Positions 1,671 to 44,001 of a DNA stretch of 50,328 nt are shown piece by piece (the stretch's first letter is position 1; each line of letters opens with the position of its first letter). The DNA is taken from IMG/VR virus record IMGVR_UViG_3300037200_000052, positions 1 through 50,328 of that record, one strand, 5' to 3'. Position numbers and translations under genes: made by a program. Below the pieces are notes generated by a model that saw only the letters and a program-made list of their open reading frames with translations, made no database searches and was not told where the DNA came from. This DNA comes from a virus. Taxonomy: Duplodnaviria > Caudoviricetes.

Positions 1671-2126
1671 TTAGTTCGGCACCCAAAATATCCTGACCGT
1701 CTGCGTGCCATTCGAGCTTACGCCGTGAAGGTTTCCAGAGGGGTCTGTTTGAAATCTTCCTTGGTAGCTTTCTCCCGGCCTGAGCATGTTCGGATAATTA
1801 GTAGTGTTCGCATAGGCTGCGTTTCCAAACAAAAACTGGCTCGTGCTGTTGGCGGAAGTCGTGTTGTCGATATGCAGTTGACCACCGTTGATTACCGGGT
1901 TTACCCCATAGACCGTATCCGTTGCTCCGGCGAAATTGAAGTTCTGAAGATTGACGTTCGCGTTGCTGGACACCTGCGAGAACGTGCTGGAGAGCGTCAC
2001 CTGCGCGCCGTTCGTGCTGTAGGACTCACTGAGACTATAGCTGGTGGTCTGTCCAAAAGACGAAATGGCCAACATCGCAACCGAGCATCCAACGGCAATA
2101 GATTTAAGAATTCGATTCACTGTCAT
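1671..2126 (-). CDS. Signal-peptide-bearing protein in the neck/tail module
   Basis: Likely start MTVNRILKSIAVGCSVAMLAISSFG|Q with AGGAG upstream; S/T/N-rich mature part. Confidence 0.7.
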   Translation of the reverse strand: MTVNRILKSIAVGCSVAMLAISSFGQTTSYSLSESYSTNGAQVTLSSTFSQVSSNANVNLQNFNFAGATDTVYGVNPVINGGQLHIDNTTSANSTSQFLFGNAAYANTTNYPNMLRPGESYQGRFQTDPSGNLHGVSSNGTQTVRIFWVPN

Positions 2127-2163
2127 TCTCCTAGTTGTGCGGCCATGTCTCATTCCAAGCTGC

Positions 2164-2667
2164 CTACCAGCCAATCCAAATGTTCACGTTGATGTTCACG
2201 GGTTGCAAATTCATCTCCCGAAATTCCACGTTGATTCGTTCCTGTGTCCTCGCCTGTATCGCATCGCATTCAGCCTTGGCTTCCGCGCTCACTCCGAAGA
2301 ACGGACGCGCTGCTGGCATCCGTGAAGTACCGAATTGCTGAAAGTGCGCCACCAGCTCATCTCCTTCGATGGCCACGAACGCCGAATCCTCTCCAAGCGA
2401 CCCGCTCATAATCGATTCTTCCAACTCCCCGAAGCGAAGCCTTGGGGTGCTCGGCGAGATAGCCCCAATCTTTTCCTTGCGACGGATCGTTGATGGGGCG
2501 AGTGGTATGGCCGGCATGACCGGGCTTCCAACCATTTCCGGTGTGGTAAGTTGTTCGCCTGCCTCAATCATGCCCCGGCAATCAAACTTGATTGCATCGG
2601 CCATCTCACGCACCATACGCGTCATCTGGGCGTGAACGGATTCGCGTAGGGTGTCGATATTGGGCAT
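2164..2667 (-). CDS. Tail completion / virion morphogenesis protein (HK97 gp10 / Mu gpG-like)
   Basis: Motifs PLAPSTIRRK and HFQQFGTSRMPAARPFFG. Confidence 0.75.
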   Translation of the reverse strand: MPNIDTLRESVHAQMTRMVREMADAIKFDCRGMIEAGEQLTTPEMVGSPVMPAIPLAPSTIRRKEKIGAISPSTPRLRFGELEESIMSGSLGEDSAFVAIEGDELVAHFQQFGTSRMPAARPFFGVSAEAKAECDAIQARTQERINVEFREMNLQPVNINVNIWIGW

Positions 2668-2670
2668 GGC

Positions 2671-3153
2671 CTAGTTGTCCCCCTCATCTGCCGATTGCGA
2701 CGGATCGATCAGGCTTTCCTCCCAAAGGACTGTGAAACACGGCATGATGGAACCACGCGATATTGCCGCCCATTCGGTAGGTGTCTTGGTGGCATACCAC
2801 CGGGCCAACTGACTGCCACCGGGCTGCTGCTCGTTCACCGCCGCCTTCACGAGCGCCTCCCCGATGAGCAGGTTGTCCTCCAAGGATTCCAGATCGGCAA
2901 TCGTCTGGGCGCTGTCTGGCTTGGCGTATATCAACAAAATTCCGTAGTGCCCGGCATGTTCGGCCACATCCTGAATCTGATCAAACTTCAGGGCGTCATC
3001 CGCCGTGAGAATGAATGCCGATGGTAAATCCACTGCACCAAGAATAGACGGGCTTGGCCATCCGCGAGACACTGTCTTGAATTGTCCGGTGCCCTGCACA
3101 AGTTGCTTGAGACCGACCGCAATCGTCTGCTTGATAGGATAGGTGGCCTGCAT
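2671..3153 (-). CDS. Putative tail terminator / neck protein
   Basis: 160 aa with a DLPSAFI motif; position after the head-tail adaptor. Confidence 0.5.
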   Translation of the reverse strand: MQATYPIKQTIAVGLKQLVQGTGQFKTVSRGWPSPSILGAVDLPSAFILTADDALKFDQIQDVAEHAGHYGILLIYAKPDSAQTIADLESLEDNLLIGEALVKAAVNEQQPGGSQLARWYATKTPTEWAAISRGSIMPCFTVLWEESLIDPSQSADEGDN

Positions 3154-3154
3154 G

Positions 3155-3754: not shown

Positions 3755-3770
3755 TCATTCACACTTGCGC

Positions 3771-5702
3771 TTATTGCACGTTGGTTTGGGTGCCCATGGT
3801 AATCACAGGCTCGGCTGTCGTGGCCGGCGAGGTAGCGATGTTCTTGATGGCCGGGAACGCGGGCGGGAAATAGACCTCCGCCAGTTGTTCCGAGTACACG
3901 CCGTTCTCATAGCGCCGGGTGCGAATCGGCCATTGGAAAGCGTAGTAGTCACGGCGGGCGCGGACCTGCGCCAGATTGCCGACGTTGTTCATCGCGTAGG
4001 GCAGTGTCTCGGTCCAGCCCAGGGCATTACCCGGAGGTAGATAAGGGTGCACGATGATATCCACGGAACTCTGGAACGCGAAGAACGGATTGATGAGCTT
4101 CGGAATCTGGAATCCACCCACGATGCGATTGGTTTCTCCACCCTCATAACCCTCAATCATGCGGACCAGAGGAGCACCGCCATTCGCAACCACCAGGTTC
4201 TTGATCGCCTGTCCAACATCGGCGGAAACGTAGAACCGCTGTGGCCCGAACTTCCATTTGGTCCAGAGCGTATAGAACATGGTGTTGAACGTGGTGATTC
4301 CACCGGCGCCATCGGATGTCATCACGGCGCCGTCGAGCGAGGCGCTGTATCCGCCCGGGAAGGTGCCGGACTGCGAGACATTGTTTCCTTGGAAGAAGTT
4401 GTTGCCACCGGGCACGCTGGCCGGATTGATATATGCCGACAGGCTCCCGAGCGCCTGCGTCCAGATACCGTCGAACACGAGAATGTTGGCGCTGCGGTCG
4501 TTGTTCACGAGATCCGTGGGCAACCATGCCAAATTCGTATAGGTCAGCGCGCCGAGCACGCATGAATTTAGGTTGCTGTAACCGGCGAACTGATATTGTC
4601 CGGTTGAAGCTGTGGCCAAAAACCAGCAATAGGCATAGGCGTTCGGTATGCTCGTGCAGGATGCGGTAATGTATCCGCCCGTGCTGCTTGTGCCGGACGA
4701 ACTGGCGGCGCTCGCCTTGCTGCAACCGTTGTTATAAACGGTCGTGGTGCCGTCGAGATTCTGGCGCGTAATGGTCGCGGTGCCGGCAGCGCTCAGGAGC
4801 GATCCGCCCGTTGTCGCCAGAGAGGTGTTTCCCGTGGGATCGACAATGCGAGTCATATCCATGCTCAGGGCCACAACCTTTAGGTAATAGGTCGAGCCGT
4901 TGCCGAGAGTTCCACCGGTACCAGCGGGACTGGTCGTGGCCAGCGTGGCTGCCGCCGGCGCGCCGAGAGCAAAGCTGCCGTTATTGAGTTCGCTGGGCAA
5001 ACCGATGCCGCCCATGAGCAGCAACTCCTCCGAATACGTCAACGCCTGGATGGTCTGCAATACGGCGAGGGCCTTCACGTCCTGATAGCCCTGCGAGGCC
5101 GTGTCCATTTCAAACGTGACGTAGTTTTCCAAACCGATTGACCGGAATACCGCCGTCATGGCGAAATCGCGCTGACTGATCGCTCCGCCTCGTGTGCCTT
5201 CCGAAATGCCCACGCCGGTTGCGCCTTCGTTGATACTCACGACGGCGCGCCAGTTGGCAGCCGTCCCGGTGCCGGGGACGCGCGGGGTGCTGTTACGAAT
5301 CGGGCTGAATACCGGGTAGAGGAGCTTCATCGGCGCTTCGAGATCGTATTGGACCGGGCCAGTGACAGGCGATGTGGGTATGCCCCATGCCTTTGTTACA
5401 CCATCGGACGCCCGGAACATATCCAGCAATTCCAGATAAGCGCGGGCGGTGTTCACGTTCTGTCGAACCAGACGAAGCCCGGAGGCCACAACACTTTGCG
5501 CGCTCTGCGAGAAGTCACCCGAAACCTTGGTGAGGCCATGGGATTCCTCGGAGACGCGAGCCATTACTTCATCGTCCTTCATCTTGCGGATGGTAGAGTC
5601 GTCGGCTCGACCCCGGAGAGGCACGCGGCCCTTGGGAAGATTTCCAGAGGAAGCAATCAGGGCTTCGAGTCCGGCGTCAATCGTTTGGAATCGGGATTTC
5701 AT
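3771..5702 (-). CDS. Major capsid protein with an inserted Ig/FN3-like domain
   Basis: 643 aa after the protease gene. YDLEAPMKLLYPVFSPIRNSTPRV, IIVHPYLPPG and a RDYYAFQWP C-terminus; central T/G/A-rich insertion (GGTLGNGSTYYLKVVA). Confidence 0.85.
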   Translation of the reverse strand: MKSRFQTIDAGLEALIASSGNLPKGRVPLRGRADDSTIRKMKDDEVMARVSEESHGLTKVSGDFSQSAQSVVASGLRLVRQNVNTARAYLELLDMFRASDGVTKAWGIPTSPVTGPVQYDLEAPMKLLYPVFSPIRNSTPRVPGTGTAANWRAVVSINEGATGVGISEGTRGGAISQRDFAMTAVFRSIGLENYVTFEMDTASQGYQDVKALAVLQTIQALTYSEELLLMGGIGLPSELNNGSFALGAPAAATLATTSPAGTGGTLGNGSTYYLKVVALSMDMTRIVDPTGNTSLATTGGSLLSAAGTATITRQNLDGTTTVYNNGCSKASAASSSGTSSTGGYITASCTSIPNAYAYCWFLATASTGQYQFAGYSNLNSCVLGALTYTNLAWLPTDLVNNDRSANILVFDGIWTQALGSLSAYINPASVPGGNNFFQGNNVSQSGTFPGGYSASLDGAVMTSDGAGGITTFNTMFYTLWTKWKFGPQRFYVSADVGQAIKNLVVANGGAPLVRMIEGYEGGETNRIVGGFQIPKLINPFFAFQSSVDIIVHPYLPPGNALGWTETLPYAMNNVGNLAQVRARRDYYAFQWPIRTRRYENGVYSEQLAEVYFPPAFPAIKNIATSPATTAEPVITMGTQTNVQ

Positions 5703-5730
5703 AATCGGTATTCTCCTTGGTTAGGCAAAA

Positions 5731-7113
5731 TTAATTCATCGCCGCGAGCACCTTGGTCAACTGACCGTTGCCCTTGGAATCATCTTCCTTCTTCAAAAGT
5801 TCGGACACGATTTCCTCGCGCGGTCGATCCGGCATTTCCAGCATGAACTTGGTCAACAGCGACAGGCGTTTGACCATGCCGTCGAAGTCATCGGACAGTT
5901 TCTTGAAATCCTCGCCGGAGACTTCGGATTCGATTGTGTCGCCGGAAGACTTGGCGAGCGACAATTTGCCGAATGCGGCGGAGAACTTCGAGAACGCATC
6001 GCGCATCTTGGTCATTGCCGACTTCCGCATCTTGGCGGCGTTCTTGCGTTTTTCCTCGTCCTTGCCGTCGCCCTCTTCCTCGTCGGCGGCATCCATTTCC
6101 TTGCAGGCCATCTCCATGCAGTCAGCGGCCTTGGTGACCCCATCGACCGCCTTGCCGGCGTAAACCGCGCTGCTCTTTTGAACTTCCTGGATGGCGGCGA
6201 TAATGCGTTCGTTGGCTGCGCCCTGCTCCGTGGTCTGCCGATTGCCGGACTGAATTGCCTTGACGATGGCGTCGGCTAGATCGCCGTTGCCATTTGGCGC
6301 GGGATCAGCCTTTCTGCCGCCAATGCCCTTGGCAATCGTTTCGAGTTCCGTAAGTAACGTCTTATCGGAATCGCTCAGGTCGTCCGCCTTTCGGAGGTCA
6401 TCAATCTGTGATTGCAATTTCTTAACGGCATCAGCTTTCATAACTGTCTCCTTGGGGGGATGGTTTTCGGGAAAAGAAGAAGCCGAACCGCAAACACAAT
6501 GTTCTCGGTCGGCTCCGCAGGTTGCACACCCGGCTCGCGCTGTCTGTCTGTCGCCGGTTGACGGTAAATCCTTGTTGGTTGGAGAATTACTACCGGACTT
6601 GCGTATTGTCAACAGAAAATCTCCGAATTGTATTTCAGTCGATCCGTCGTCGGGATTCTCGGAAACCTTTCCGAAGGACAAAACGCACTCTGGATTGGCG
6701 GGCCGGTCAACGAGAGAAATCTCATTCAGCACGAGCCGAATGATCTCTTTTCCGGCCTTCAATACCTTGCGGCCACCGATGCTGAATCCCTTCAGTACAC
6801 CTTTCAGAACCTTGTCTTTCGAGTCCGGGTTGACCACGCGCGCCCTTATAAATAGGCCCTTATCATCGACATGGGCATCTTCAACCTTGCCGGCGGCGAT
6901 GTTGGAGTGCATCTCCCGGAGGTTGGCCCATTTCATGTAGTCAGGAAGAGCATCCTTGATCGCATCCAGCGTCACGATGTCCCCCTGATCGTCCAGTTTG
7001 TCGGTGGAAGCGTAGCCCTCCACGATGACATCGCCGTTGTCCTCAGTTGTACCGGTGAATTTGAAGAACCAGCCGAAAGATTTTTCTATGGTGACGGGTT
7101 TTGGGATACTCAT
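5731..7113 (-). CDS. HK97-family prohead protease with C-terminal scaffold-like region
   Basis: VEGYAST..D.QGD, LREMH, GFSIGG and EISLVDRPANP motifs; helical charged C-terminal half. Confidence 0.92.
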   Translation of the reverse strand: MSIPKPVTIEKSFGWFFKFTGTTEDNGDVIVEGYASTDKLDDQGDIVTLDAIKDALPDYMKWANLREMHSNIAAGKVEDAHVDDKGLFIRARVVNPDSKDKVLKGVLKGFSIGGRKVLKAGKEIIRLVLNEISLVDRPANPECVLSFGKVSENPDDGSTEIQFGDFLLTIRKSGSNSPTNKDLPSTGDRQTARAGCATCGADREHCVCGSASSFPENHPPKETVMKADAVKKLQSQIDDLRKADDLSDSDKTLLTELETIAKGIGGRKADPAPNGNGDLADAIVKAIQSGNRQTTEQGAANERIIAAIQEVQKSSAVYAGKAVDGVTKAADCMEMACKEMDAADEEEGDGKDEEKRKNAAKMRKSAMTKMRDAFSKFSAAFGKLSLAKSSGDTIESEVSGEDFKKLSDDFDGMVKRLSLLTKFMLEMPDRPREEIVSELLKKEDDSKGNGQLTKVLAAMN

Positions 7114-7586
7114 TGGACGGCTCCTGAAACGTTATCGACCTGCGTTGTCACGGTGATGGATGCGTTGGTTGATGCCTGTGGTTGCAGCACGAATCCCGGC
7201 GTTGCTGAGGCCGGCCAGTTGCTCACGCATCCGATAATCTCCCAAGGCCCGGCGGAATTGGTGATGCCCATGGCCGGAAATCCTATGCCATTTCCTAGAC
7301 ATATGTTTATCAACATGACGCCATTGCTCAGAATTCCAATGGTCGAGAAATTGGAGTAGATGCAGGACAGGCGCGTAGAAGAATAGAGGGATTGCTGTGC
7401 AATCGGTGTGAGTGCATTCACGGCATTGGTGGCCTGAACTGCAGTAAGTCCCAAATTGGTAAATACTGGCACGAGCCACGCAACGATCTGCGCCGTGTTG
7501 GTTGGAGTGAGGGCCGGGCATGGGTCGGATGCGAAGACAGGCATGGCCAGCAATGCGAGAAGAACGGATAGTTTAATTACGCGCAT
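7110..7586 (-). CDS. Signal-peptide-bearing protein in the head module
   Basis: MRVIKLSVLLALLAMPVFA|S with GGAGG upstream; its stop overlaps the protease start. Confidence 0.7.
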   Translation of the reverse strand: MRVIKLSVLLALLAMPVFASDPCPALTPTNTAQIVAWLVPVFTNLGLTAVQATNAVNALTPIAQQSLYSSTRLSCIYSNFSTIGILSNGVMLINICLGNGIGFPAMGITNSAGPWEIIGCVSNWPASATPGFVLQPQASTNASITVTTQVDNVSGAVQ

Positions 7587-33483: not shown

Positions 33484-33501
33484 AGTGCGTAATTACGCAC
33501 T
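33484..33501. promoter_or_regulatory. Perfect 18-bp palindrome (operator-like)
   Basis: AGTGCGTAATTACGCACT, also at 14798-14815. Confidence 0.7.
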
Positions 33502-33584: not shown

Positions 33585-34292
33585 CTACAGATTGACCTTG
33601 AAATCCAGACCGCCCACGTAGACCTCTCCGGAGATGTCAGTACGTTTGCCGATACCGGCATTCAGGCCGAACTCGAATGTATCCGTCTTGTCCTTGTAGA
33701 GACCCAAGGCGAGGCCTGCCGCTGCTTCCCCGACGATCTTGGTGCTCTCCTTCCCAAAGCCAACACCAGAGCCTACAAAGCCCCAAGGCGTCGCGCTGAC
33801 GTTGGCTAGCCATGCCGGTAGTTTGCTGGCATAACCGATGAGCGGATGAGTCGGTAGTTGCAACGTCAGTTGTCCACCCCCGTAGGTCGGAAGGTCGTTG
33901 AGATATTCAGCGTGCACCCCGACGATCACTTGTGGGCTGACGGCGTATCCAAGCATGGCGATACCTCCAAACTGACTGCCGCTGGCCGCGTGGGGCGCGT
34001 AGAGGCCATCCACTGCAAACACCCAGTTCGTTGCGCCTGACTCGGCTCCGGCGATGATGGCGTCAATGCCAGTAGGGGCTGGGTTGGTTGCTGGCGGTGT
34101 ATTGGTCTGCCCATACGACTTGCCAATCCCGAGTGTGACCAGTAACAGGGCGATGAGGAGGCCGTCCTTCAGGTGCTTTTGTCGCATTGCCCGCCGCTGG
34201 AGCAAATGCTTCAAAGATATTTTCACACATAGCAGTTCTTTCAAACTCAACACTACCACACAAAGCCACACGACAATTTCAATCCACTTCAT
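33585..34292 (-). CDS. Putative outer-membrane beta-barrel protein
   Basis: Signal-like LLIALLLVTLGIGKSYG|QTN, alternating Gly/aromatic strands, C-terminal YVGGLDFKVNL. Start may be 34187. Confidence 0.65.
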   Translation of the reverse strand: MKWIEIVVWLCVVVLSLKELLCVKISLKHLLQRRAMRQKHLKDGLLIALLLVTLGIGKSYGQTNTPPATNPAPTGIDAIIAGAESGATNWVFAVDGLYAPHAASGSQFGGIAMLGYAVSPQVIVGVHAEYLNDLPTYGGGQLTLQLPTHPLIGYASKLPAWLANVSATPWGFVGSGVGFGKESTKIVGEAAAGLALGLYKDKTDTFEFGLNAGIGKRTDISGEVYVGGLDFKVNL

Positions 34293-34694: not shown

Positions 34695-35048
34695 TTACTT
34701 ACTCCTTCTTGTTGACCATCGAAACAGCTTCAGGCCATTTCTCTTTAACTGCTTCTCGAACGTCCACAGAATTGCCACGAGCGCAGCCAATCCACCGAGG
34801 TAATACTTCTGGCGCTGTTCGCTCTGCGTCAGGTGATTCTGTACCAGCCTGTCCACGCTATTCGTCATTTGCGATACCGCGCACCATACGGCCTTGTCGC
34901 AATCCCAAATACCAAGTATCGCATTCGTGCTCACAGCATCCACATCGGCCCGTATCCGGTGGCTGTCCTGAAGACAGCTACTTCCAAGCAGGCAGAGAGC
35001 CGCTAACACCCATATAAAACTCTGGCCTCGCATGTCCGTCCGTTTCAA
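34695..35048 (-). CDS. Putative lipoprotein with C-terminal TM helix (u-spanin-like topology)
   Basis: VLAALCLLGSSC; YYLGGLAALVAILWTF followed by a basic tail. Confidence 0.5.
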   Translation of the reverse strand: MKRTDMRGQSFIWVLAALCLLGSSCLQDSHRIRADVDAVSTNAILGIWDCDKAVWCAVSQMTNSVDRLVQNHLTQSEQRQKYYLGGLAALVAILWTFEKQLKRNGLKLFRWSTRRSK

Positions 35049-35172
35049 CGGTCGTGTTCCATCCGTTCGGTAGCATCGACTTTGCTGTCTGACAACCGCT
35101 ACTTGACAACAGGAACAGCAGGAGGCAACACAGGGGCAGCAGTTGTATCCGCTTGAACGGTCTTTTTGGCAT
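34978..35172 (-). CDS. Small putative lipoprotein
   Basis: LLLFLLSSSGC lipobox-like; overlaps both neighbours. Confidence 0.5.
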   Translation of the reverse strand: MPKRPFKRIQLLPLCCLLLFLLSSSGCQTAKSMLPNGWNTTVETDGHARPEFYMGVSGSLPAWK

Positions 35173-35569
35173 TCGCTCCTCGTTGGGCCAACGGTGTTAC
35201 ATTCTGGACGCCCTTCAAGTTTTCAAGAATCATCACGATTGGCGAAAGCCACGGGTACTTCGCCTCGTAGCCGTCCAAAATCTTCGGGCCATACAATACG
35301 ACCAGACCGGCGATGGCAGGCCAGTACGTTGTGGCGAGATTCCAAAGGACGACCAACCAATGCCAAGAGACGGTAAAGGTGAAGCTCGGCACCGTGAAAG
35401 TGAAGTTCGTGCTCACAGCGGCCACCGGCGGCGCGGAAATTGGCACTGTGGCGACCGCGACGCTGCTTGTCACCTGCGCCCACACGACGGCATGCCAAAT
35501 AAATACGAACGCCGCAACCATCAGTATCAGTGTGGGCAATCGTTCGATAAGACTGTGTAATCGTTTCAT
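35099..35569 (-). CDS. Membrane protein (holin-like)
   Basis: N-terminal hydrophobic segment plus further TM segments; GGAGG upstream. Confidence 0.55.
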   Translation of the reverse strand: MKRLHSLIERLPTLILMVAAFVFIWHAVVWAQVTSSVAVATVPISAPPVAAVSTNFTFTVPSFTFTVSWHWLVVLWNLATTYWPAIAGLVVLYGPKILDGYEAKYPWLSPIVMILENLKGVQNVTPLAQRGANAKKTVQADTTAAPVLPPAVPVVK

Positions 35570-37818: not shown

Positions 37819-38151
37819 TCATCTTGGCCTTGGTTCCGGCTTGTCGGTGGCCTGATGTGCGGCGAGTTGCAATGCAACTAAGTTTTGATTCTCGGCAACA
37901 TGGTCAACCTTTTCGCCAAGTTCTTTCACGTCGGCTTTCGTGGCGAGGGTGTTGGCCATTTCCAGCCTGAGAGAGGCTATGTCTTTCACGGCGTTCGTGA
38001 CCTGCTCACTGTTCTTTTCAATGTCCGTGCGACAATCGGTGAGCATTCCCCAAATGACAATCGCCAGAGCCGCTATGAGCGCGGCGATGATGGAACACGC
38101 TATACCGAGCGCCCATTTAAGCGTGATGTTGTTCTTTTCTCCGTCGCCCAT
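37819..38151 (-). CDS. Single-TM coiled-coil membrane protein
   Basis: WALGIACSIIAALIAALAIVIWGML followed by heptads. Confidence 0.65.
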   Translation of the reverse strand: MGDGEKNNITLKWALGIACSIIAALIAALAIVIWGMLTDCRTDIEKNSEQVTNAVKDIASLRLEMANTLATKADVKELGEKVDHVAENQNLVALQLAAHQATDKPEPRPR

Positions 38152-38185: not shown

Positions 38186-39583
38186 TTAGAACAAAATGTA
38201 TCCGCCCCCCATCAGCACCGTGATGTTCGGGGTCAACACCGTTACGATTCCGATACCCAAGACGTTCGAGTAGATGTCCGTCGCCTGCGTATAGGAATTC
38301 AGTGCGACCTGTTGTGTGGTTCCCTCTTTCGTACAGGCGAACGTGATCTCGTTTGACCCGGACCCAAAGGAGAACGCCCATACATTGCCGTTGGTGACGA
38401 CGCCGGATGCCGTCTTGTTGCCGATCCACGCCGCCGTGTAGGACGCCGCTCGTTGTTCGGTGGTCGGGTAGAAAACCTCATTTGAGAAGCTCCCGGTATA
38501 GGTGTACAGGTACGGCACGCCACCGGGATTGAAGTTGAAGCTCGTCGCTCCACCCGCGCGCGCCATGATCATCTCCTTGGCGAGTCGTTGAGGTGGGACT
38601 CCGGTGTTGTTGGCGTATGATGTTCCAAATTCATCAATCCGCACCGGCATGTTGCTGGGAATAATCGTGTAGACGTAATTCAGGTATTGATAAATGTTCC
38701 CTGGATACCAACCGGATGGACAACTGGTTGGGCAGAAGTCCACCATGGCCACGAGCGGGTCTAAATCCGCCGGGGCATACAGATGCACGTTCATGCAATC
38801 CGCGTTCGTCAAAATACCAAGTGCAACCAAGTCGGTCATCTGGTTCGTGGCAGGCCCGGTAAAATCTCCCCAAGCGAGTTGCACACCGTTTGTCCGCGCT
38901 CCCTGGCACGCGCGGTAAATCTGCATCTGGAACGCTTCCGAGAACGTACCGGCTGATGGCCCCACCGATACCGGCTGGTTCGTGGCTGCAAACGGCTCAT
39001 TGCGTACCACGACCCACGCCAGCCCATTCGTGACTCCGTTCCCGGTAACGGTGTGATATGCACCCGTCGAGTACCTCGCTACAAACCACTCTACGAAATT
39101 TGCCAGCGCCGCCGCGTAGTGGTTGGTGTCCAGATTGGTAGCCCACGCCGGGTCGGCCAAAGGATTGTTCGTGTATGCCGAACACACCCAGACGACGCCA
39201 AGTTGCATGTTAAACTTGCAGCCCCACACCATCTGAGAGTCCGCCCCGCTCGCCCCCTCGAATGTGTTCGATCCATTGGGCTGGATTTGTGACCATGCCA
39301 AAGACGTATTAGCCAGTGCACCCGAGTACCCGAATGTCCCATACATGCTTCCGAATCCCCAGGTTGGCCAGTAGAGATATTGCCCGAATGTGTCCTGTGC
39401 CGAACCGGGTAGTCCGCCGGAATCCTGACCATCCCAGCTCGCTGATGCCCCGTACCAAGGATACTGACCGATGGACAGCGGCATCTGCGGAGGTGGAAGA
39501 GGTATCCAGCCTGTCATCTGCACTTGAGCACAGGCAGACAGGCAGAGAGCGCAGAGGGCGAGGATGGATAAGTGCAGGCGCAT
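38186..39583 (-). CDS. Exported clan GH-A glycoside hydrolase (GH5/GH39-like)
   Basis: Signal or lipobox (LCLSAC-AQ); acid/base RNEP, NVHLY, nucleophile VRIDEFG. Confidence 0.75.
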   Translation of the reverse strand: MRLHLSILALCALCLSACAQVQMTGWIPLPPPQMPLSIGQYPWYGASASWDGQDSGGLPGSAQDTFGQYLYWPTWGFGSMYGTFGYSGALANTSLAWSQIQPNGSNTFEGASGADSQMVWGCKFNMQLGVVWVCSAYTNNPLADPAWATNLDTNHYAAALANFVEWFVARYSTGAYHTVTGNGVTNGLAWVVVRNEPFAATNQPVSVGPSAGTFSEAFQMQIYRACQGARTNGVQLAWGDFTGPATNQMTDLVALGILTNADCMNVHLYAPADLDPLVAMVDFCPTSCPSGWYPGNIYQYLNYVYTIIPSNMPVRIDEFGTSYANNTGVPPQRLAKEMIMARAGGATSFNFNPGGVPYLYTYTGSFSNEVFYPTTEQRAASYTAAWIGNKTASGVVTNGNVWAFSFGSGSNEITFACTKEGTTQQVALNSYTQATDIYSNVLGIGIVTVLTPNITVLMGGGYILF

Positions 39584-42500
39584 TAGAGGAGTCCGCTGGC
39601 TCCATAAATATGTGAATTGTAATTCGTCCCCGCTGGCGTAGGAATAGTTGCCTGCCAGTCATTGGAGCCGGTCAGGTTTCTCAGCAGATTCCAATCGGGT
39701 GGCACGCTCTTCACCGCATTCGTGACCGTCTGCAACGTGTCCGCCCGAGTCCCCGGCAGGTAGTAGCTCATATTCTCGTTGGTTTCAAACCCGCCAAAAA
39801 TCACTGTATACGAATCGCCATTCGTGCCACTCACTCCGTTAGCATTTGGATTGGAAAGAGCCCACGAGTTGACAGCAAACGGGATGCCCGTCGAACAGGC
39901 TATAGATGCGTTGTCCCCCTGATTGTTGATGCCCAAATCCCACGCATCGCCATAAAAGTAGCAGCCATTAAGCACAATGGTGTAGTTGGCCGCGATGGCG
40001 TTTCCGTGGAACGCGCCGATGCTGGCAATCTGTTGCGTCTCTCCGCCGGAATAATTTTCGACATTACCAATCTTGCAATTGTTGATGTAGATATTCTGGT
40101 TTCCACTCACAATCGGGATGGCTTTTACCTTTGACGGCGCGGGCTGCTCGTTCATCTGAATCTGCGCATGCATCCCGTTGATGTAGACCCACTGAGAATA
40201 GGCTATCCCAAAAAGCTGCGAGTTTAAATTGGTGTTATACCCGGAAAGGAAAATCGCCTGTATGTTCCAGTCGCCGTTAACTTGCAGATTAGTGCAGTTC
40301 TGGAACGACATGGCTTCACCGATGGCGGATGCGGAGGAATTCCAATACGAAAATATCTGCGGCTGATAAGAATTCACGACCACCCCGGTCAATCCATCAA
40401 AAGTCAGGATGGTATTCGTGAGGGTGTAAGTCCCACCGTTCACGTAGCCTACATCCCCAGTCGTAAGCGAGTTCGTCCAAGCCGTTATGTTGTTGCTAAA
40501 TAGCAACGTCTGGCCATTACGCCAGATGGAGCAACCAATTGGAAGGCTCGGCAGCAGATTGGTGATGCTGGTATTGTTGGCGAAGGTCAGGGAGTTGGTT
40601 GCTGATGATGTGCCCGTTGTCTCAAATTCCCCCGCCACCGCCGCACCAAGCGCGTTGGCATTATTGGTGTACCAAGTGGCGTTCGGGCCAACTCCGTTGG
40701 TGGACGTAAAAAGCCATCCATTCGTATAGGTAGCGGCAACAACAGCGGCAAAACCACCAACATTTGTAAGTTCAGAGCCGGATATCACAAACGTATTATA
40801 ATTTGACCCGGCTCCCTGCAATAGCCACCAGTACGTTGCTGGTGATTTTTCTTTGACTCCAAGCAACGCAGACAATACTCCGGGAAATACTCCCGAAACT
40901 TGATTGAACACTCCCGTTAAAGACGCTGAAGCGAAACCCGTTGCAATCGCGGAAGTTATCTCAGCAAATGGAACACCCCCGATTGTCACTGCACCCACAG
41001 TCCCGAATACTGCCGAACCCGTGGTGTTCGTCGAACCCGCCACCAGATTAGTCGTTGCGACCCCGCTCAATGCTCCGGCGTTCGTGCTGATGGCCGAAGC
41101 CAATGCCCCTGTCGAAACTATTGGACTAGTGCCTGAGGTATCAGCGGAGAACACCGTCGTTGTCGGGCTGGTGGCAGCCACGAGAACGCCGTTTGAGCCA
41201 ATAGCGGACTGAGTGACCGCGCTGACGATGCTCGTGGGAAAGTAGGTGTTTCCGACCTGTCCCGTACCGCCTTGTGTCAACGTGAACCCGGTTCCAAAAG
41301 CCACGGTTGAATTGGTGACCGGCGTTGCTGACGTAGGAATCGGGATGTACATCTGCTGAACCGGGCCGTCTACATGAATCGGCAGATACATCGTGCTACC
41401 CTGAGCCAAGGTGAACCCGTTGCTGCCCGGCCCTTTGAATGTCCAGCCACTCACGTTGCCAGCAAATACGAAGTTCACCACCACATTATTTGTAGGACTT
41501 ACCGGGGCATACAGATAAAGCTCTTCGGATAACGTAGACGGTGGCTCATTGGAGAATACATAGGTCACGGGAGACGCGCTTAATCCTGTCGTGTTCGTCA
41601 CAACCTTCTCAAGATTGCCAATGACGTTTATCAACTGCGAATTCGTAGAGCCGTCATGGAGTCCGGCAAAGAAAGACAGATTCGTGGTCTGGATTGGGCC
41701 GCCCCCGAAAGCGTTCAACCCGACTTCCAGTACATTGCTTACAACAGTCACCGTCGCGCCCGCAAGACCGACGCCGCCCGTAACGGAATTGAACACCCCA
41801 AGTTGCACCAACTCATTCGAGTCCACCAGTTGATTGGCGGGTGTGAGAGCGCCGTTCTTGTCGTAGAATACCCATGCGACGTTTGTTCCCTCATTAAACA
41901 CGAGTGAGTTCTCATAGTTAAAGCTGCCCGCGTTTCCGTTTTTGGAACCGAAGTTTGCTATGGGAGAGCTTAATGCCGCTGACCAGAGAGTATCGTTGCT
42001 GATGATGAGGTTTTGACCGGAGTCGAATAACAGCCCATTCAGCAGCGTCAACGCGGTCAACTTGGTCACCCCGGATTGGCCGTTCGTGATAACCCCCGGT
42101 GTGGCGCTGGCTGTAAACGTATAACCGTTCTGGGCGTCCGGGCCGGTGACTCCCACCGTGGAGCTTGGGTGAATAGTTTGCACTATGTTCGTGAGACCGT
42201 TGGCGTTACCATTCGCCAGCGCCGCTAAGGTCGCATTCGTCGGGACGATCCCTATGGATTGCAGGTAGGGAATGGATGCGTAGGCCACTTTGCCGGTGTA
42301 GAAACTGGGCGCACCCAAGGCCAGATTCGTGATGATGAGACTGGCATCGCCATTGGTCACCCCACCCGAACCCGTCTGCGTGATGTTGTTGACGATGGTT
42401 GTGCCGGAGCCTCCGACCGGAACCGTTCCCCCTGAATTAGTGACAGTTCCAAATGTAGCCCATGTAGACCAGTCATTGCTGACGATGAGGGAATACCCGT

Positions 42501-42882
42501 TGGAAACACTCATGCTCACCGTGGCGCTGCTGATGGTGGCGTTGAACGAAGCCGGGGAGGAAGCCAGACCAAAGCTCTGATTGAGGGAATTGGTGATGGC
42601 ATTGAACAGATTGATTGCCCCTTGATTGACGGTATTGGTCAACTGCATCTGGTTCCCTCGTACCGGGGAGTTGGTCCACTGCAACTGAAACCCGTTCACG
42701 GTCAAAGTGCCGTTGGTGGGCGCGGGATTCGTTATGGTCAGGCTTATCGTGGCCACTTGTCCAGTGACGATACTGATGGCCTGAAACGCAGTGATCGAGC
42801 CCACATTGACATGCAGGAAGTCGGCTCCAAAAACGGATGCCGACCAAAGGATAATCAACAGGATTGATAGGCGTGTTTTCAT
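39583..42882 (-). CDS. Large tail fibre/spike-like protein with signal peptide (1099 aa)
   Basis: MKTRLSILLIILWSASVFG|A; G/T/N/S-rich fibre-like body and a beta-helix-like C-terminus. Confidence 0.7.
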   Translation of the reverse strand: MKTRLSILLIILWSASVFGADFLHVNVGSITAFQAISIVTGQVATISLTITNPAPTNGTLTVNGFQLQWTNSPVRGNQMQLTNTVNQGAINLFNAITNSLNQSFGLASSPASFNATISSATVSMSVSNGYSLIVSNDWSTWATFGTVTNSGGTVPVGGSGTTIVNNITQTGSGGVTNGDASLIITNLALGAPSFYTGKVAYASIPYLQSIGIVPTNATLAALANGNANGLTNIVQTIHPSSTVGVTGPDAQNGYTFTASATPGVITNGQSGVTKLTALTLLNGLLFDSGQNLIISNDTLWSAALSSPIANFGSKNGNAGSFNYENSLVFNEGTNVAWVFYDKNGALTPANQLVDSNELVQLGVFNSVTGGVGLAGATVTVVSNVLEVGLNAFGGGPIQTTNLSFFAGLHDGSTNSQLINVIGNLEKVVTNTTGLSASPVTYVFSNEPPSTLSEELYLYAPVSPTNNVVVNFVFAGNVSGWTFKGPGSNGFTLAQGSTMYLPIHVDGPVQQMYIPIPTSATPVTNSTVAFGTGFTLTQGGTGQVGNTYFPTSIVSAVTQSAIGSNGVLVAATSPTTTVFSADTSGTSPIVSTGALASAISTNAGALSGVATTNLVAGSTNTTGSAVFGTVGAVTIGGVPFAEITSAIATGFASASLTGVFNQVSGVFPGVLSALLGVKEKSPATYWWLLQGAGSNYNTFVISGSELTNVGGFAAVVAATYTNGWLFTSTNGVGPNATWYTNNANALGAAVAGEFETTGTSSATNSLTFANNTSITNLLPSLPIGCSIWRNGQTLLFSNNITAWTNSLTTGDVGYVNGGTYTLTNTILTFDGLTGVVVNSYQPQIFSYWNSSASAIGEAMSFQNCTNLQVNGDWNIQAIFLSGYNTNLNSQLFGIAYSQWVYINGMHAQIQMNEQPAPSKVKAIPIVSGNQNIYINNCKIGNVENYSGGETQQIASIGAFHGNAIAANYTIVLNGCYFYGDAWDLGINNQGDNASIACSTGIPFAVNSWALSNPNANGVSGTNGDSYTVIFGGFETNENMSYYLPGTRADTLQTVTNAVKSVPPDWNLLRNLTGSNDWQATIPTPAGTNYNSHIYGASGLL

Positions 42883-42890
42883 GGTGTGTC

Positions 42891-43457
42891 CTACGGAGAT
42901 CCAAATCCGGTGGCGCCAAGCCAGCCGGCCAGCGTGCCGTTGATATACCACTCATACCGGCCCGTGGTGGAATTGAATATCATGGCTGTGCCGCTCGGGA
43001 TGGTTGACGGCGGCGGTGCCCCGCTTACGTCACCATGCGCGATACAGAGACAGGAAATCTGGCGCTCAAACTGATACGTCACTCCACCGGCTACCCATGT
43101 AGCCAGCACGCAAACGAACCCGGTGGCAGACAGATTCGTGGAAATGAATGTCGCCATCTGCGGGGTATTGCAGTTGAGTACCCCTAGGAATGTAATGCCA
43201 TCCCCCTGAAGCGTTAGGTTCGTCAGGGCGAGTTGGTTTGGGTTTGGAGGAGGCCCGGTTCCGCTGGGCTTGTCTACGATTACAACCTGCACGCTGATGC
43301 CCGCCGGTGGCGTATAGATGCCGTTCCCGCCATTGCTGAATTGCAGGGAGATCGGCACCCCCAGATCGTTCTGGTTGACAGTCAGAGACCCCGGCGACGT
43401 GGTGCTCGTCGGCGAGATGTAGAAATTCTCGGAATTCCAGTCCGGGTAGATCAGCAC
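42891..43457 (-). CDS. Putative baseplate/fibre-attachment protein (BppU-like)
   Basis: LTVNQNDLGVPISLQF pattern; position upstream of the fibre gene; AGGAGG upstream. Confidence 0.5.
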   Translation of the reverse strand: MLIYPDWNSENFYISPTSTTSPGSLTVNQNDLGVPISLQFSNGGNGIYTPPAGISVQVVIVDKPSGTGPPPNPNQLALTNLTLQGDGITFLGVLNCNTPQMATFISTNLSATGFVCVLATWVAGGVTYQFERQISCLCIAHGDVSGAPPPSTIPSGTAMIFNSTTGRYEWYINGTLAGWLGATGFGSP

Positions 43458-43479
43458 GGTCTAGCCTCCTTTCGGACGG

Positions 43480-44001
43480 CTAGAGGCTTCCGCCACCGGA
43501 AAGCACGGGATAAAGCGCGTTCGTCGTGTTGCCGGTAATCAGCCAGAATTTGTTTGTGGCAACCCATTGCTCGAAGGTGTTGGTGTTTAACCCAATACCG
43601 GTCGCCGTACCCCCAGAGGCGAAAATAGACAATGGATTCGTGATACCGGCTACAACGCCATTGGTGCCCGGCGGGAAGTTCGTGACACCGATGTAGTACA
43701 GACCCAGGGCGCTGACGGAACCAACGTTCGCGGTGCCAAAGTACAACTTGTTCGTTGGCGAGAAGTACATGCCGGTGCCGTAGACGGAGGCGAGCTTGAA
43801 AATTCCGCCCGGCAGATATTCCCACTTCACGTTATTTGTGTCGGTGATGATGGACACGGCACCGGACACCTGATTGCTGATGTTGGTGGGGTCAGCCTGA
43901 GCCTTGGCCGATTGCTCGGACCAGCGGGAGGCGGTAATGAGGATACCGGCGGTGACGATTGCGAGCGCGGCGGCTATGATTCTGCGTTTCATGTCTGACA
44001 T
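43480..44001 (-). CDS. Signal-peptide-bearing TN-rich protein in the tail module
   Basis: MKRRIIAAALAIVTAGILITA...AKA|Q; AAGGAG upstream. Confidence 0.7.
   Translation of the reverse strand: MSDMKRRIIAAALAIVTAGILITASRWSEQSAKAQADPTNISNQVSGAVSIITDTNNVKWEYLPGGIFKLASVYGTGMYFSPTNKLYFGTANVGSVSALGLYYIGVTNFPPGTNGVVAGITNPLSIFASGGTATGIGLNTNTFEQWVATNKFWLITGNTTNALYPVLSGGGSL

What the first reader, a model, noticed from the sequence alone, without database searches (positions are those of the whole stretch)
1671..44001. Virion-module proteins with Sec signal peptides: possible periplasmic maturation of phage particle components
Seen: at least six genes in or next to the morphogenesis operon begin with classical n/h/c signal peptides. 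They are 7110..7586 (between portal and protease), 1671..2126 (between neck genes and tail tube), 43480..44001 and 39583..42882 (tail fibre position), 38186..39583 (glycoside hydrolase) and 35658..37766 (beta-helix). They are co-oriented, and some overlap their neighbours' start or stop codons. Several predicted cleavage sites are followed by Gln (SFG|Q, AKA|Q, VNG|Q, ACA|Q). Known: tailed-phage virion proteins normally fold and assemble in the cytoplasm without signal peptides. Inference: these head-decoration and fibre/depolymerase-like proteins are exported, matured in the periplasm (disulfides, pyroglutamate, glycosylation) and join the particle at lysis. Alternatively they remodel the host envelope late in infection. 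This is my best candidate for an undescribed system here.
Basis: partly seen in the sequence, partly recalled or inferred. Interest (0 to 1): 0.85.

Follow-up and report, generated by a model that had tools for sequence, protein, structure and literature searches.

The report
Exported-protein cassette in a phage late operon
A complete peat-soil phage genome carries an unusual run of late genes whose products start with export signals, most likely enzymes and membrane proteins sent to the host envelope rather than parts of the virus particle.

Summary
The window is a complete circular 50.2-kb tailed-phage genome. All six named genes begin with a classical n/h/c export signal. I found four more membrane or exported proteins beside them. 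My rule-based test flags 9 of 48 annotated N-termini against 0.9% of internal control positions (P = 7e-10). Seven near-complete relatives sharing the head module have only small, scattered signal-bearing genes.

- F (35658-37766) belongs to a large family of right-handed beta-helix carbohydrate enzymes. Most members carry their own signal peptide directly before the conserved domain.
- A (7110-7586) fills a slot that is empty in most relatives.
- E and F are interleaved with holin- and spanin-like genes, and no ordinary endolysin is detectable.

Best reading (about 0.55): late-expressed, Sec/lipoprotein-exported accessory proteins acting on the host envelope or exopolysaccharide.

One unexpected regularity remains. 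In other viral contigs with a signal-bearing F-like gene, half of the neighbouring genes also carry signals (29 of 56 against 9 of 116). Some of those neighbours look like fibre or lectin proteins. Virion incorporation is therefore not excluded. D and E are orphans and the host is unproven.

The parts
7110..7586 (-). A: 158-aa protein with a type-I signal peptide (VFA|SD) and 4 Cys in the mature part. It lies between the portal-MuF gene and the protease/scaffold gene.
   Evidence: GGAGG lies 8 nt upstream. It overlaps the portal gene's end by 14 nt and the protease gene's start by ATGA. There are no homologues. The slot is closed in 35 of 56 relatives.
1671..2126 (-). B: 151-aa Ser/Thr/Asn-rich protein with a signal peptide (SFG|QT). 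It lies after the Neck1/tail-completion gene and before the presumed tail tube gene.
   Evidence: AGGAG lies upstream. There are no homologues.
43480..44001 (-). C: 173-aa protein with a long Ala/Gly/Thr-rich N-terminal hydrophobic segment. This could be a signal peptide (AKA|QA) or a signal-anchor/SAR-like segment.
   Evidence: There is no significant family or PDB match.
39583..42882 (-). D: 1099-aa Ser/Thr/Asn/Gly-rich orphan with a signal peptide (VFG|AD). All 5 Cys lie in the last 320 residues.
   Evidence: The only hit is itself. The Atlas best score of 0.79 is uninformative.
38186..39583 (-). E: 465-aa orphan with a canonical lipobox (LSAC), or alternatively ACA|Q. Its start overlaps D's stop (TAATG). 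An alternative start exists at Met118.
   Evidence: There is no family or fold assignment.
35658..37766 (-). F: 702-aa protein. It has a signal/lipobox-like N-terminus (FAAC, or VNG|Q), a unique domain of about 115 aa, and then a right-handed beta-helix carbohydrate-active domain (residues ~140-700).
   Evidence: 736 relatives at E<=1e-3. PF13229 is found in relatives. Model pLDDT is 73.8 and is high over residues 140-700. Best fold matches are GH136, pectate and rhamnogalacturonan lyases, PL6 lyases and the HK620 tailspike, and phage beta-helix proteins.
37819..38151 (-). 110-aa protein with one strong N-terminal transmembrane helix and a charged helical tail. It is holin-like or i-spanin-like and lies between E and F.
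   Evidence: hydropathy 2.88. Pfam gave only sub-threshold hits. The functional label is inferred.
35099..35569 (-). 156-aa membrane protein with an N-terminal hydrophobic segment (VWA|Q) and a second hydrophobic stretch. It is holin-like.
   Evidence: There is no family match. The label is inferred.
34695..35048 (-). 112-117-aa protein with a lipobox-like N-terminus (LLGSSC) and a C-terminal hydrophobic segment. This is the layout of a unimolecular spanin.
   Evidence: There is no family match. The spanin layout is recalled knowledge and was not tested.
33585..34187 (-). 200-aa protein with a signal peptide (SYG|QT) and a Gly/aromatic-rich sequence with alternating hydrophobic residues, ending ...GGLDFKVNL. 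It may be a small outer-membrane beta-barrel.
   Evidence: There is no family or PDB match. The barrel reading is an inference from sequence pattern only.
33484..33501 (-). Terminator-like hairpin with a T-run just after the last cassette gene. A 10/12 promoter-like site follows at 33459-33431. This is the probable end of the late transcription unit.
   Evidence: Overall site counts in the region are not above the shuffled controls, so this is a consensus match only.
7573..10044 (-). Context: portal protein fused to a Mu F-like domain.
   Evidence: PF04860 at 8e-23 and PF04233 at 3e-6. phrog_2662 at 2e-63.
3771..5702 (-). Context: major capsid protein. The protease/scaffold gene lies at 5731-7113, the head-tail adaptor at 3155-3754 and Neck1 at 2164-2667.
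   Evidence: phrog_13692 at 2e-91; phrog_21715 and phrog_9427; phrog_442; phrog_26. A distant match lies under a feature annotated 'major head protein' in phage MMB025.
45669..47771 (-). Context: 700-aa tail hub-like protein without a signal. A presumed tape-measure gene of about 796 aa runs 379->1 and then 50206->48195 across the circular junction.
   Evidence: Atlas leads point to XkdQ/YqbQ, gpD/Vgr and 'tail protein' clusters with TM 0.36-0.51, which are leads only. Size and position are the only evidence for the tape measure.
42891..43457 (-).
   Evidence: Searches gave no match. Binding was not tested.

Best explanation
The late operon of this complete phage genome ends in a cassette (44001 down to 33585) whose products are sent out of the cytoplasm by the host Sec and lipoprotein pathways. 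Two single insertions of the same kind lie in the head and neck modules (A and B).

The proteins act in the envelope and are not built into the particle. F, and probably D and E, are polysaccharide-active enzymes that reach the periplasm or are lipid-anchored. There they cut the host's exopolysaccharide, capsule or wall polymers while progeny assemble. This eases release, or destroys or masks receptors so that progeny and lysogens are not lost to re-adsorption.

The interleaved small membrane proteins (37819-38151, 35099-35569, 34695-35048) are the holin- and spanin-type lysis proteins. The 200-aa product of 33585-34187 is an outer-membrane protein of the lambda Lom kind. A, B and C are small periplasmic proteins of the superinfection-exclusion or moron kind.

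Shown: the export signals, their excess over chance, F's fold and family, and the position in the operon.
Inferred: actual export, the substrates, and absence from virions.
For: 1. Signals are real and far above chance. 9 of 48 N-termini pass, against 79 of 8380 internal controls. Relatives with the same head module have 58 of 1268 ORFs and 20 of 320 genes flagged. All of those are small and scattered, with at most 3 in any 8 consecutive genes.

2. F's family is a family of secreted enzymes.
- It has 736 relatives.
- The match begins at F residue ~140 and at residue ~15-40 of the relatives.
- At least 85 of the 150 listed carry a signal peptide directly before the YYVDYxxGxDxNxGT motif.
- Relatives carry Beta_helix, PKD and Ig domains.
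- The fold matches GH136 and polysaccharide lyases best.

3. In 33 viral contigs the F-like domain occurs with a signal in 20 (18 by rule, 2 by eye). It starts exactly at the motif with no signal in 10. It follows a 1053-aa extension in 2, and one is of another form. Export is therefore an alternative to virion attachment in this family.

4. A fills a slot that is closed in 35 of 56 relatives and holds unrelated small ORFs in others. A to F have no counterpart in 80 related loci.

5. E, F and 34695-35048 have lipobox cysteines.

6. E and F are interleaved with holin- and spanin-like genes, and no known endolysin family was found in about 60 ORFs scanned.

7. Precedents in print:
- Sec-exported and SAR endolysins (PMC6116005, passages read).
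- Signal-peptide genes of P. gingivalis phages, read by their authors as envelope modifiers (PMC10367356, passages read).
- Signal peptides in 3261 of 64,678 prophage CAZymes (PMC13507307, passages read).
Against: - No independent promoter or terminator sets the genes apart, as is typical for morons. A and E are translationally coupled to structural neighbours.
- D sits where a central fibre would be expected. No receptor-binding protein was positively identified among the signal-less tail genes.
- F has an extra N-terminal domain of about 115 aa that the plain secreted relatives lack. This recalls the particle-binding domain of tailspikes.
- In other viral contigs the signal-bearing neighbours of F-like genes include fibre- or adhesin-like domains: YadA head repeats and a ConA-like lectin domain, plus a sub-threshold match to the phage depolymerase C-terminal domain.
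- One signal-bearing neighbour matches a PHROG named 'virion structural protein' at 7e-6.
- In the complete genome G314 the three signal-bearing proteins are the only large proteins after the head genes.
- A signal peptide only reaches the periplasm. How the enzymes would meet an extracellular polymer is not explained.
- D, E, A, B and C have no homologues, so their functions are guesses.
Confidence: 0.55

Rival explanations
1. D, E, F, C (fibre or depolymerase) and A, B (head or neck decoration) are genuine virion parts. They are exported, folded in the periplasm, and attached to cytoplasm-built particles when the inner membrane is breached at lysis.
For: - The genes lie inside the structural operon with overlapping start and stop codons.
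- D (1099 aa) occupies the central-fibre position.
- F has an N-terminal domain followed by a beta-helix, like a tailspike.
- Signal status is shared by neighbouring genes in other phages: 29 of 56 neighbours against 9 of 116 elsewhere in the same loci, Fisher P = 3e-10.
- Some of those neighbours carry fibre-like YadA or lectin domains.
- In the complete genome G314 no other large tail protein is visible after the head genes.
Against: - No homologue of any of the six is a known virion protein.
- Most of F's family are free secreted proteins.
- Lipobox cysteines on E and F would tether them to membranes.
- A's slot is empty in most relatives.
- Searches found no report of such assembly in tailed phages.
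- A cultured podovirus distantly related to G314 has 0 of 27 signal-bearing CDS among the 27 scanned in the head/tail stretch fetched.
Confidence: 0.12
2. Lysogenic-conversion or auxiliary-metabolism reading. The phage is temperate, and the exported enzymes (D, E, F) with the outer-membrane protein serve the lysogen. They would feed it plant or microbial polysaccharide, or change its surface, and play no role in lytic growth.
For: - A serine recombinase gene lies at 13532-14266 (PF00239 at 6e-30).
- Soil prophage CAZymes with signal peptides are on record (PMC13507307, passages read).
- F's relatives look like ordinary bacterial secreted glycanases.
Against: - The cassette is co-oriented and contiguous with the tail genes, with no promoter of its own detected.
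- The recombinase is short (244 aa) and is followed by a separate 127-aa ORF.
- No integrated copy with host flanks was found. The MAG contig is all phage.
- No RNA run holds the sequence, so expression could not be examined.
Confidence: 0.13
3. Signal-anchor reading. The N-terminal segments are not cleaved. They hold the proteins at the inner membrane in an inactive state until the holin fires, as in SAR endolysins. One of them (C or E) is the missing endolysin.
For: - No known endolysin family was found in the genome.
- C's hydrophobic segment is rich in Ala, Gly and Thr.
- E and F flank holin-like genes.
- SAR and Sec-exported endolysins are established (PMC6116005, passages read).
Against: - Most of the segments have good small-x-small cleavage sites and strongly hydrophobic cores (hydropathy 3.0-3.7), unlike weakly hydrophobic SAR domains.
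- None of the mature parts matches a muralytic family.
- F's fold points to polysaccharide, not peptidoglycan.
Confidence: 0.1
4. Artefact. The true starts lie downstream of the hydrophobic segments, or the resemblance is chance in hydrophobic, low-complexity orphan ORFs.
For: E has a plausible downstream start at Met118, which a public gene call uses. The coding score of its first 117 codons is weak. No SignalP run was possible.
Against: - The control rate is 0.9% against 19% observed.
- Ribosome-binding motifs or coupling sit at the upstream starts.
- The stated frame scores best for all six.
- Downstream starts would leave long non-coding gaps in a tightly packed operon.
Confidence: 0.03

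Closest known systems
Phage morons and exclusion proteins in tail regions (lambda lom and bor, HK97 gp15, T5 Llp, Cor).
   Same: These are signal-peptide, lipoprotein or membrane proteins encoded among or just after tail genes. They act in the host envelope and are not virion parts. The 200-aa product of 33585-34187 and the small proteins A, B and C fit this pattern by size and position.
   Different: Classical morons have their own promoter and terminator and are single small genes. Here there are about ten genes, three of them 465-1099 aa. They are coupled into the late operon with no separate signals detected. No sequence similarity to any of the named proteins was found.
Sec-exported and SAR endolysins with holins and spanins (fOg44 Lys44, P1 Lyz; review PMC6116005, passages read).
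   Same: These are phage late proteins deliberately routed through Sec and kept in check until lysis. The cassette contains holin-like and spanin-like genes and lacks a recognisable cytoplasmic endolysin.
   Different: None of the exported proteins matches a muralytic family. F is a beta-helix polysaccharide enzyme. The number and size of the exported proteins far exceed those of a lysis cassette.
Signal-peptide genes of Porphyromonas gingivalis phages that obey the Bacteroidetes Q-rule (PMC10367356 and PMC5837995, passages and abstract read).
   Same: Several phage genes of unknown function have Sec signals whose predicted cleavage exposes Gln. Their authors read them as envelope modifiers. 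Here Gln follows the predicted site in up to 6 of 9 signals.
   Different: This phage uses Shine-Dalgarno motifs before 27 of 48 genes, against a 12% background. From general knowledge that is unlike Bacteroidota. It is binned with an Acidobacteriota MAG. A Q-rule in its host is not shown: 7 of 54 in the MAG sample.
Secreted right-handed beta-helix glycanases and lyases (PF13229; GH136 lacto-N-biosidase, Pel9A, PL6 lyases). Also bacterial EPS-trimming enzymes with a tailspike fold, such as Pantoea WceF (PMC7949094, listing and abstract only).
   Same: F shares the fold and the signal-peptide-plus-beta-helix layout.
   Different: F is phage-encoded and has an extra N-terminal domain of about 115 aa with no relatives. 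Identity to any solved structure is only 9-13%, and catalytic residues were not examined.
Phage tailspike depolymerases (for example HK620, E about 7e-4).
   Same: They have a beta-helix catalytic body preceded by an N-terminal domain, and the gene lies after the tail genes.
   Different: Tailspikes have no signal peptide and are assembled in the cytoplasm. F's sequence relatives are mostly stand-alone secreted proteins. There was no match in 50,697 deposited phage records.

Membership tests
Sec type-I signal peptide | A positively charged n-region, an uncharged hydrophobic h-region of about 8-20 residues, and small residues at -3 and -1 within a few residues after it. | tested here: met
   A, B, C, D, 33585-34187 and 35099-35569 pass a rule-based test. 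The control rate is 0.9%. SignalP itself was not available.
Sec type-I signal peptide | Actual translocation and cleavage by signal peptidase I. | not testable with these tools
   This needs PhoA or BlaM fusions, or N-terminal proteomics.
Bacterial lipoprotein signal (type II) | A lipobox [LVI][ASTVI][GAS]C at residues about 15-35, after an uncharged h-region, with K/R near the N-terminus. | tested here: met
   E has L-S-A-C18. F has F-A-A-C20, with an unusual Phe at -3. 34695-35048 has G-S-S-C, also non-canonical at -3. Each also has a possible type-I site a few residues later, so the type is ambiguous.
Right-handed beta-helix carbohydrate-active enzymes (Pfam PF13229 clan) | Sequence homology to family members, and a parallel beta-helix fold. 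| tested here: met
   This applies to F only. F itself has no Pfam hit. It has 736 relatives, and PF13229 appears in three of the ten relatives scanned, one of them above the cut-off. The model is a beta-helix with pLDDT mostly above 85 over residues 140-700. Foldseek probability is 1.00 to GH136, PL9 and PL6 chains.
Right-handed beta-helix carbohydrate-active enzymes (Pfam PF13229 clan) | Catalytic residues and a defined substrate. | not tested
   Identity to solved enzymes is 9-13%. No active-site mapping was done.
   There was no Pfam, PHROG or PDB sequence match. There were no homologues. Only weak N-terminal matches were seen in 2 of 301 Acidobacteriota genomes. The single-sequence AlphaFold model was unusable at pLDDT 32. 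NEP and DEFG motifs seen by eye resemble clan GH-A signatures from memory only.
Phage tailspike or tail fibre (virion-borne) | An N-terminal particle-binding domain homologous to known adaptors, no export signal, and presence in virions. | tested here: not met
   D and F have export signals. No N-terminal similarity to each other or to tail neighbours was found. There was no PHROG tail family. Presence in virions is not testable here.
Classical moron | A gene inserted between conserved neighbours that are adjacent in related phages. | tested here: met
   This applies to A. The portal-protease gap is at most 72 bp in 35 of 56 relatives, and one further locus gave an anomalous value. It could not be tested for B to F, because their neighbours are not conserved.
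Classical moron | Its own promoter and terminator. | tested here: not met
   No promoter- or terminator-like sites flank A or B. Site counts do not exceed the shuffled controls. The consensus used is sigma-70 type and may not suit this host.
Bacteroidetes Q-rule substrates | Gln at +1 of signal peptidase I substrates in a Bacteroidota host that has glutaminyl cyclase. | tested here: inconclusive
   Gln at +1 occurs in 4 (automatic choice) to 6 (by eye) of 9 signals. Shine-Dalgarno use and the MAG binning do not point to Bacteroidota. The host's cyclase was not examined.
Holin and spanin lysis proteins | Small proteins with 1-3 transmembrane helices (holin). An N-terminal lipoprotein signal plus a C-terminal transmembrane helix (unimolecular spanin). 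Adjacency to an endolysin gene. | tested here: inconclusive
   The topology features are present. No family match was found. No endolysin was identified.

The most novel reading that the evidence does not exclude
A recurrent class of tailed-phage late modules that I found no description of. In it, the fibre-, lectin- and depolymerase-like proteins encoded after the head and tail genes are all routed through Sec.

Two readings remain open. Either these phages finish their particles outside the cytoplasm, with fibres or spikes folded in the periplasm and attached at lysis. Or they deploy an 'inside-out' module that strips the host's polysaccharide coat and receptors from within before release.

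The coupling of signal status between neighbouring genes is what needs explaining. It holds across viral contigs ranging from 29 to 62% GC, including a second complete circular genome.
Probability: 0.2. Interest if true: 0.8.

Novelty: new variant of a known kind. Interest (0 to 1): 0.5.

Why it matters
Phage depolymerases are normally thought of as virion-borne spikes, or as soluble by-products released at lysis. A phage that exports a whole set of large polysaccharide-active and unknown proteins during late infection would add a different way of dealing with the host coat: from the inside, before lysis. That bears on how soil phages escape exopolysaccharide-rich hosts, and on superinfection exclusion. 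It also bears on how 'viral carbohydrate-active enzymes' in soil metagenomes should be read.

The neighbour coupling seen in other viral contigs suggests the arrangement is not a one-off. It can be tested directly by a SignalP survey of complete viral genomes.

If the proteins did turn out to be in virions, that would overturn the rule that tailed-phage particles are built wholly in the cytoplasm.

Tried and rejected
Searches and models that gave nothing:
- Pfam and PHROGs on A-F and the tail genes gave nothing.
- PDB sequence searches on A-F and 33585-34187 gave nothing below E = 0.09.
- Close-relative scans of viral contigs with A and D gave none.
- Large protein searches for D and E returned only themselves.
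- tblastn of D, F and two cassette proteins from other loci against 50,697 deposited phages gave no match.
- The single-sequence AlphaFold model of E had pLDDT 32 and was discarded.
- The Atlas search for D gave a best score of 0.79, which is uninformative.
- I looked for a shared N-terminal anchor domain among A-F and the tail neighbours by permissive all-against-all BLASTP. Only composition-level hits appeared.

Host:
- The only link is a 100% identical contig in a MAG titled Bryobacterales. That contig equals window 2244-31176 and has no host flank.
- F-like and E-like genes were found in 1 of 151 and 2 of 301 Acidobacteriota genomes, all weak matches.
- I considered a Bacteroidota host on the strength of the Gln+1 pattern. 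I set it aside because Shine-Dalgarno motifs precede 27 of 48 genes.

An idea I dropped: that the Gln of F's 'GQTN' is conserved in its nearest relatives. Their QTN aligns with F's second QTN at residue 112, not with the cleavage site.

Other points:
- Sequencing runs: no RNA holder is listed. The two DNA holders are peat metagenomes that may be the source.
- The closest head-module relatives in metagenomes (41% capsid identity, L139 and L140) are contigs of 3.6-4.1 kb. They are too short to show the A or B slots.

Tools that did not answer:
- The look-up of sequencing runs was unreachable four times before it answered.

Supplementary files of the papers cited were not opened. Those of PMC10367356 and PMC13507307 may list which phage signal-peptide genes lie in structural modules.

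Full report
WHAT THE WINDOW IS

The window is a whole virus record of 50,328 bases whose first and last 122 bases are identical. It is therefore a circular or terminally redundant genome of 50,206 bp. Almost all genes lie on the - strand. In reading order I find:
- small terminase at 15641-15042 (PF03592);
- large terminase at 13424-11670;
- portal fused to a Mu F-like domain at 10044-7573;
- gene A;
- protease/scaffold at 7113-5731;
- capsid protein at 5702-3771 (phrog_13692, 2e-91);
- head-tail adaptor at 3754-3155;
- an unknown gene;
- Neck1/tail-completion at 2667-2164;
- gene B;
- a 242-aa and a 103-aa unknown;
- an ORF of about 796 aa that crosses the junction (379->1, then 50206->48195), which is a tape measure by size and position only;
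- a 137-aa unknown;
- a 700-aa protein whose Atlas neighbours are hub or 'tail protein' clusters (a lead only);
- two small unknowns;
- then C, a 188-aa unknown, D, E, a small membrane protein, F, and four more small genes down to 33585.

Replication genes (helicases, Toprim, methylase) and a serine recombinase fill the rest.

A capsid gene 100% identical to the window's lies on a contig of a MAG titled Bryobacterales. That contig equals window 2244-31176 and carries no host DNA. The host link is therefore by binning only.

THE OBSERVATION

The six ORFs are there, and their N-termini are textbook export signals.

I had no SignalP, so I wrote a rule. It requires K/R before an uncharged stretch of at least 8 residues with high hydropathy, starting within 14 residues of the N-terminus, and followed by small residues at -3 and -1. 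I calibrated it on the phage's own proteins:
- 79 of 8380 internal positions pass (0.9%);
- 9 of 48 annotated N-termini pass (P = 7e-10).

A tenth protein, 37819-38151, has a very hydrophobic N-terminal helix without a cleavage site.

Ribosome-binding motifs or stop-start coupling sit at the signal-including starts. The stated frame has the best codon score in every case.

E is the weak one. Its first 117 codons barely score, and a public gene call starts it at Met118.

E (LSAC) has a canonical lipobox. F (FAAC) and 34695-35048 (GSSC) have lipobox-like motifs.

HOW UNUSUAL IT IS

With the same ORF caller and rule:
- 80 loci around related capsid genes have 58 of 1268 ORFs flagged;
- seven near-complete genomes of that head family have 20 of 320 flagged.

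In those seven genomes the flagged genes are 92-255 aa, apart from three of about 400-470 aa whose N-termini look like false positives. Many have lipoboxes, as expected for spanins or exclusion lipoproteins. There are never more than 3 in any 8 consecutive genes. The window has ten flagged by that caller. Three of those look spurious, and A and 34695-35048 were missed. It has 5 in 8 consecutive genes.

A cultured podovirus examined for comparison has 0 of 27.

WHAT THE PROTEINS ARE

F is the only one with relatives: 736 at E<=1e-3 in the representative library. The alignments start at F residue ~140 and at residue ~15-40 of the relatives. Those relatives mostly begin with their own signal peptide, ending right before a conserved YYVDYxxGxDxNxGT motif. 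At least 85 of the 150 listed pass the rule, and several more do by eye. Some carry Beta_helix, PKD or Ig domains.

An AlphaFold model built on 40 sequences is a confident right-handed beta-helix from residue 140. Its best solved matches are GH136 lacto-N-biosidases, pectate and rhamnogalacturonan lyases and PL6 alginate lyases. Phage tailspikes come further down the list. Viral matches are beta-helix 'structural', 'tail fibre' and depolymerase proteins.

F's residues 24-140 have no relatives and are poorly modelled.

D and E returned only themselves from a 5.8-billion-protein search. They have no family, PDB or phage match, and the fold prediction for E failed. A, B and C are likewise orphans.

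The four extra proteins have these topologies:
- a single-pass membrane protein;
- a two-segment membrane protein;
- a lipoprotein with a C-terminal hydrophobic segment;
- a signal-bearing Gly/aromatic-rich 200-aa protein ending in an alternating hydrophobic strand.

I read these as holin-like, holin-like, unimolecular-spanin-like and small outer-membrane-barrel-like. These labels are inferences from pattern and recalled knowledge, not matches.

No known endolysin family was found in about 60 ORFs scanned with Pfam.

TESTS OF THE VIRION READING

(a) Conservation of place. Among 56 related loci with both portal and protease hits, the two genes are adjacent (gap at most 72 bp) in 35. One locus gave an anomalous value. 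Four have gaps of 163-195 bp, eight have 271-689 bp and eight have more. The mid-sized gaps hold unrelated small ORFs, and in one locus (L014) the ORF carries a signal. A is therefore an insertion into a variable slot, not a conserved head component. None of A-F or their tail neighbours has a counterpart in the 80 loci.

Of 33 viral contigs with an F-like domain:
- 18 have a signal by rule and 2 more by eye;
- 10 start exactly at the conserved motif with no signal and no N-terminal domain;
- 2 place the domain behind a 1053-aa extension;
- 1 is of another form.

The family thus occurs in phages as an exported enzyme, a cytoplasmic free enzyme and a fibre fusion. The export signal goes with the stand-alone form.

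(c) Shared anchor. Permissive all-against-all comparison found no common N-terminal module among A-F and the tail proteins.

(d) Transcription. No promoter- or terminator-like sites set the genes apart. A terminator-like hairpin and a strong promoter-like site follow the last cassette gene at 33501-33431. The cassette is therefore probably the tail end of the late transcript. That fits either reading.

AN UNEXPECTED REGULARITY

Of the 33 F-like loci, my ORF caller placed the F-like gene in 25.
- In the 14 of these whose F-like gene has a signal, 29 of 56 same-strand neighbours within three genes are also flagged. Only 9 of 116 other genes in those loci are (Fisher P = 3e-10).
- In the 11 whose F-like gene lacks a signal, the figures are 4 of 59 and 4 of 65.

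These loci range from 29 to 62% GC and share nothing else with the window.

Two of the five records checked are rated 100% complete, one of them with terminal repeats. In that genome (G314) the capsid gene (phrog_1328, 2e-25) is followed by four small genes. After those come three signal-bearing proteins of 777, 257 and 642 aa, the last of which is F-like.

Some signal-bearing neighbours carry a ConA-like lectin domain (3e-12) or YadA head repeats (1e-8). One matches a PHROG named 'virion structural protein' at 7e-6.

So whole blocks of fibre- and enzyme-like late proteins switch together between exported and non-exported states. I cannot explain this fully.

WHAT I CONCLUDE

Most likely (about 0.55) the cassette and the two single insertions encode exported accessory proteins of late infection. 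These would be polysaccharide-active enzymes (F, probably D and E), lysis membrane proteins, an outer-membrane protein and small periplasmic proteins, all acting on the host envelope or coat.

This is an enlarged version of known things:
- tail-region morons and exclusion lipoproteins (recalled);
- Sec-exported and SAR endolysins (PMC6116005, passages);
- signal-peptide genes of P. gingivalis phages, read by their authors as envelope modifiers (PMC10367356, passages);
- the 5% of prophage carbohydrate-active enzymes that carry signal peptides (PMC13507307, passages).

Rivals and their odds:
- exported virion parts (0.12);
- lysogen-serving enzymes (0.13);
- uncleaved signal-anchors that include the missing endolysin (0.10);
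- artefact (0.03).

THE GLN OBSERVATION

Gln follows the predicted cleavage site in B, C, E, F, 33585-34187 and 35099-35569. Four of these were chosen automatically and two by eye.

In 300 kb of the co-binned MAG, Gln is at +1 in 7 of 54 flagged ORFs. Six of nine would then be unlikely (P about 3e-4), but my site choice was not blind.

The pattern resembles the Bacteroidetes Q-rule (PMC5837995, abstract). Against that, Shine-Dalgarno motifs precede 27 of 48 genes compared with a 12% background. From general knowledge that is not Bacteroidota-like. It stays unexplained.

LIMITS
- SignalP was not available, there are no expression data and there is no host.
- Five of the six proteins are orphans.
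- Gene calls in other loci are my own greedy ORF calls.
- IMG/VR contigs may include non-viral flanks, although two complete genomes show the pattern.
- Paper supplements were not opened.

Noticed in passing
window 14838-14903 and 25485-25550; recombinase at 13532-14266(+) and 14263-14646(+): A perfect 66-nt inverted repeat brackets 10.6 kb that includes the small terminase and several replication genes. It begins about 190 nt after a serine recombinase gene (Resolvase N-terminal domain, 6e-30). That gene is short and is followed by a separate overlapping 127-aa ORF. This could be an invertible segment, or a split integrase.
   Followed up: partly
window 31051-31554 (in gene 30641-31594) and 17704-18132 (in gene 17531-18160): Long in-frame tandem repeats. 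One is about 15 or more registers of a 24-nt unit (8 aa) in a 317-aa protein with DUF7666 and weak beta-solenoid hits. The other is 33-nt units (11 aa) in a 209-aa protein.
   Followed up: no
window 15738-15898, 16957-17117, 18696-18856; also 26606-26641 and 26677-26712: Three copies of a 161-nt element (84-88% alike) lie in the mixed-strand early region. A pair of 36-nt direct repeats lies 71 nt apart and could be regulatory or origin-related.
   Followed up: no
whole window: No known endolysin family (lysozyme, amidase, transglycosylase or peptidase) was detected in about 60 ORFs scanned with Pfam. Holin- and spanin-like genes are nevertheless present at 34695-38151.
   Followed up: partly
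G001 contig C359 (= window 2244-31176): The 9.4-Mb MAG that holds the phage sequence contains only a phage fragment without host flanks. F-like and E-like genes are nearly absent from sampled Acidobacteriota genomes: 1 of 151 and 2 of 301, all weak. The host assignment is therefore open.
   Followed up: yes
L014 ~7559-8248; L030, L019, L048, L076 portal-protease gaps: In several head-module relatives the portal-protease slot holds a small ORF. To my eye these ORFs share a loose motif (DGxxYxPxANG...VPD). In L014 the ORF carries a signal peptide and is followed by a membrane protein. The slot seems to be a hot spot for small accessory genes.
   Followed up: partly
G314 (L239-L241), 5585-13147 on the - strand: This is a second complete, terminally repeated phage genome of 43.7 kb with a podovirus-like capsid. 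Its three largest post-capsid proteins (777, 257 and 642 aa) all begin with signal peptides. One has a ConA-like lectin domain and one is F-like.
   Followed up: partly
window 7573-10044: The portal protein is fused to a C-terminal Mu F-like head-morphogenesis domain in one 823-aa ORF.
   Followed up: no
window 38186-39583: The public protein collection holds E only as a 348-aa form starting at Met118. Residues 20-117 of the long form are a Trp/Gly/Pro/Tyr-rich low-complexity stretch.
   Followed up: partly
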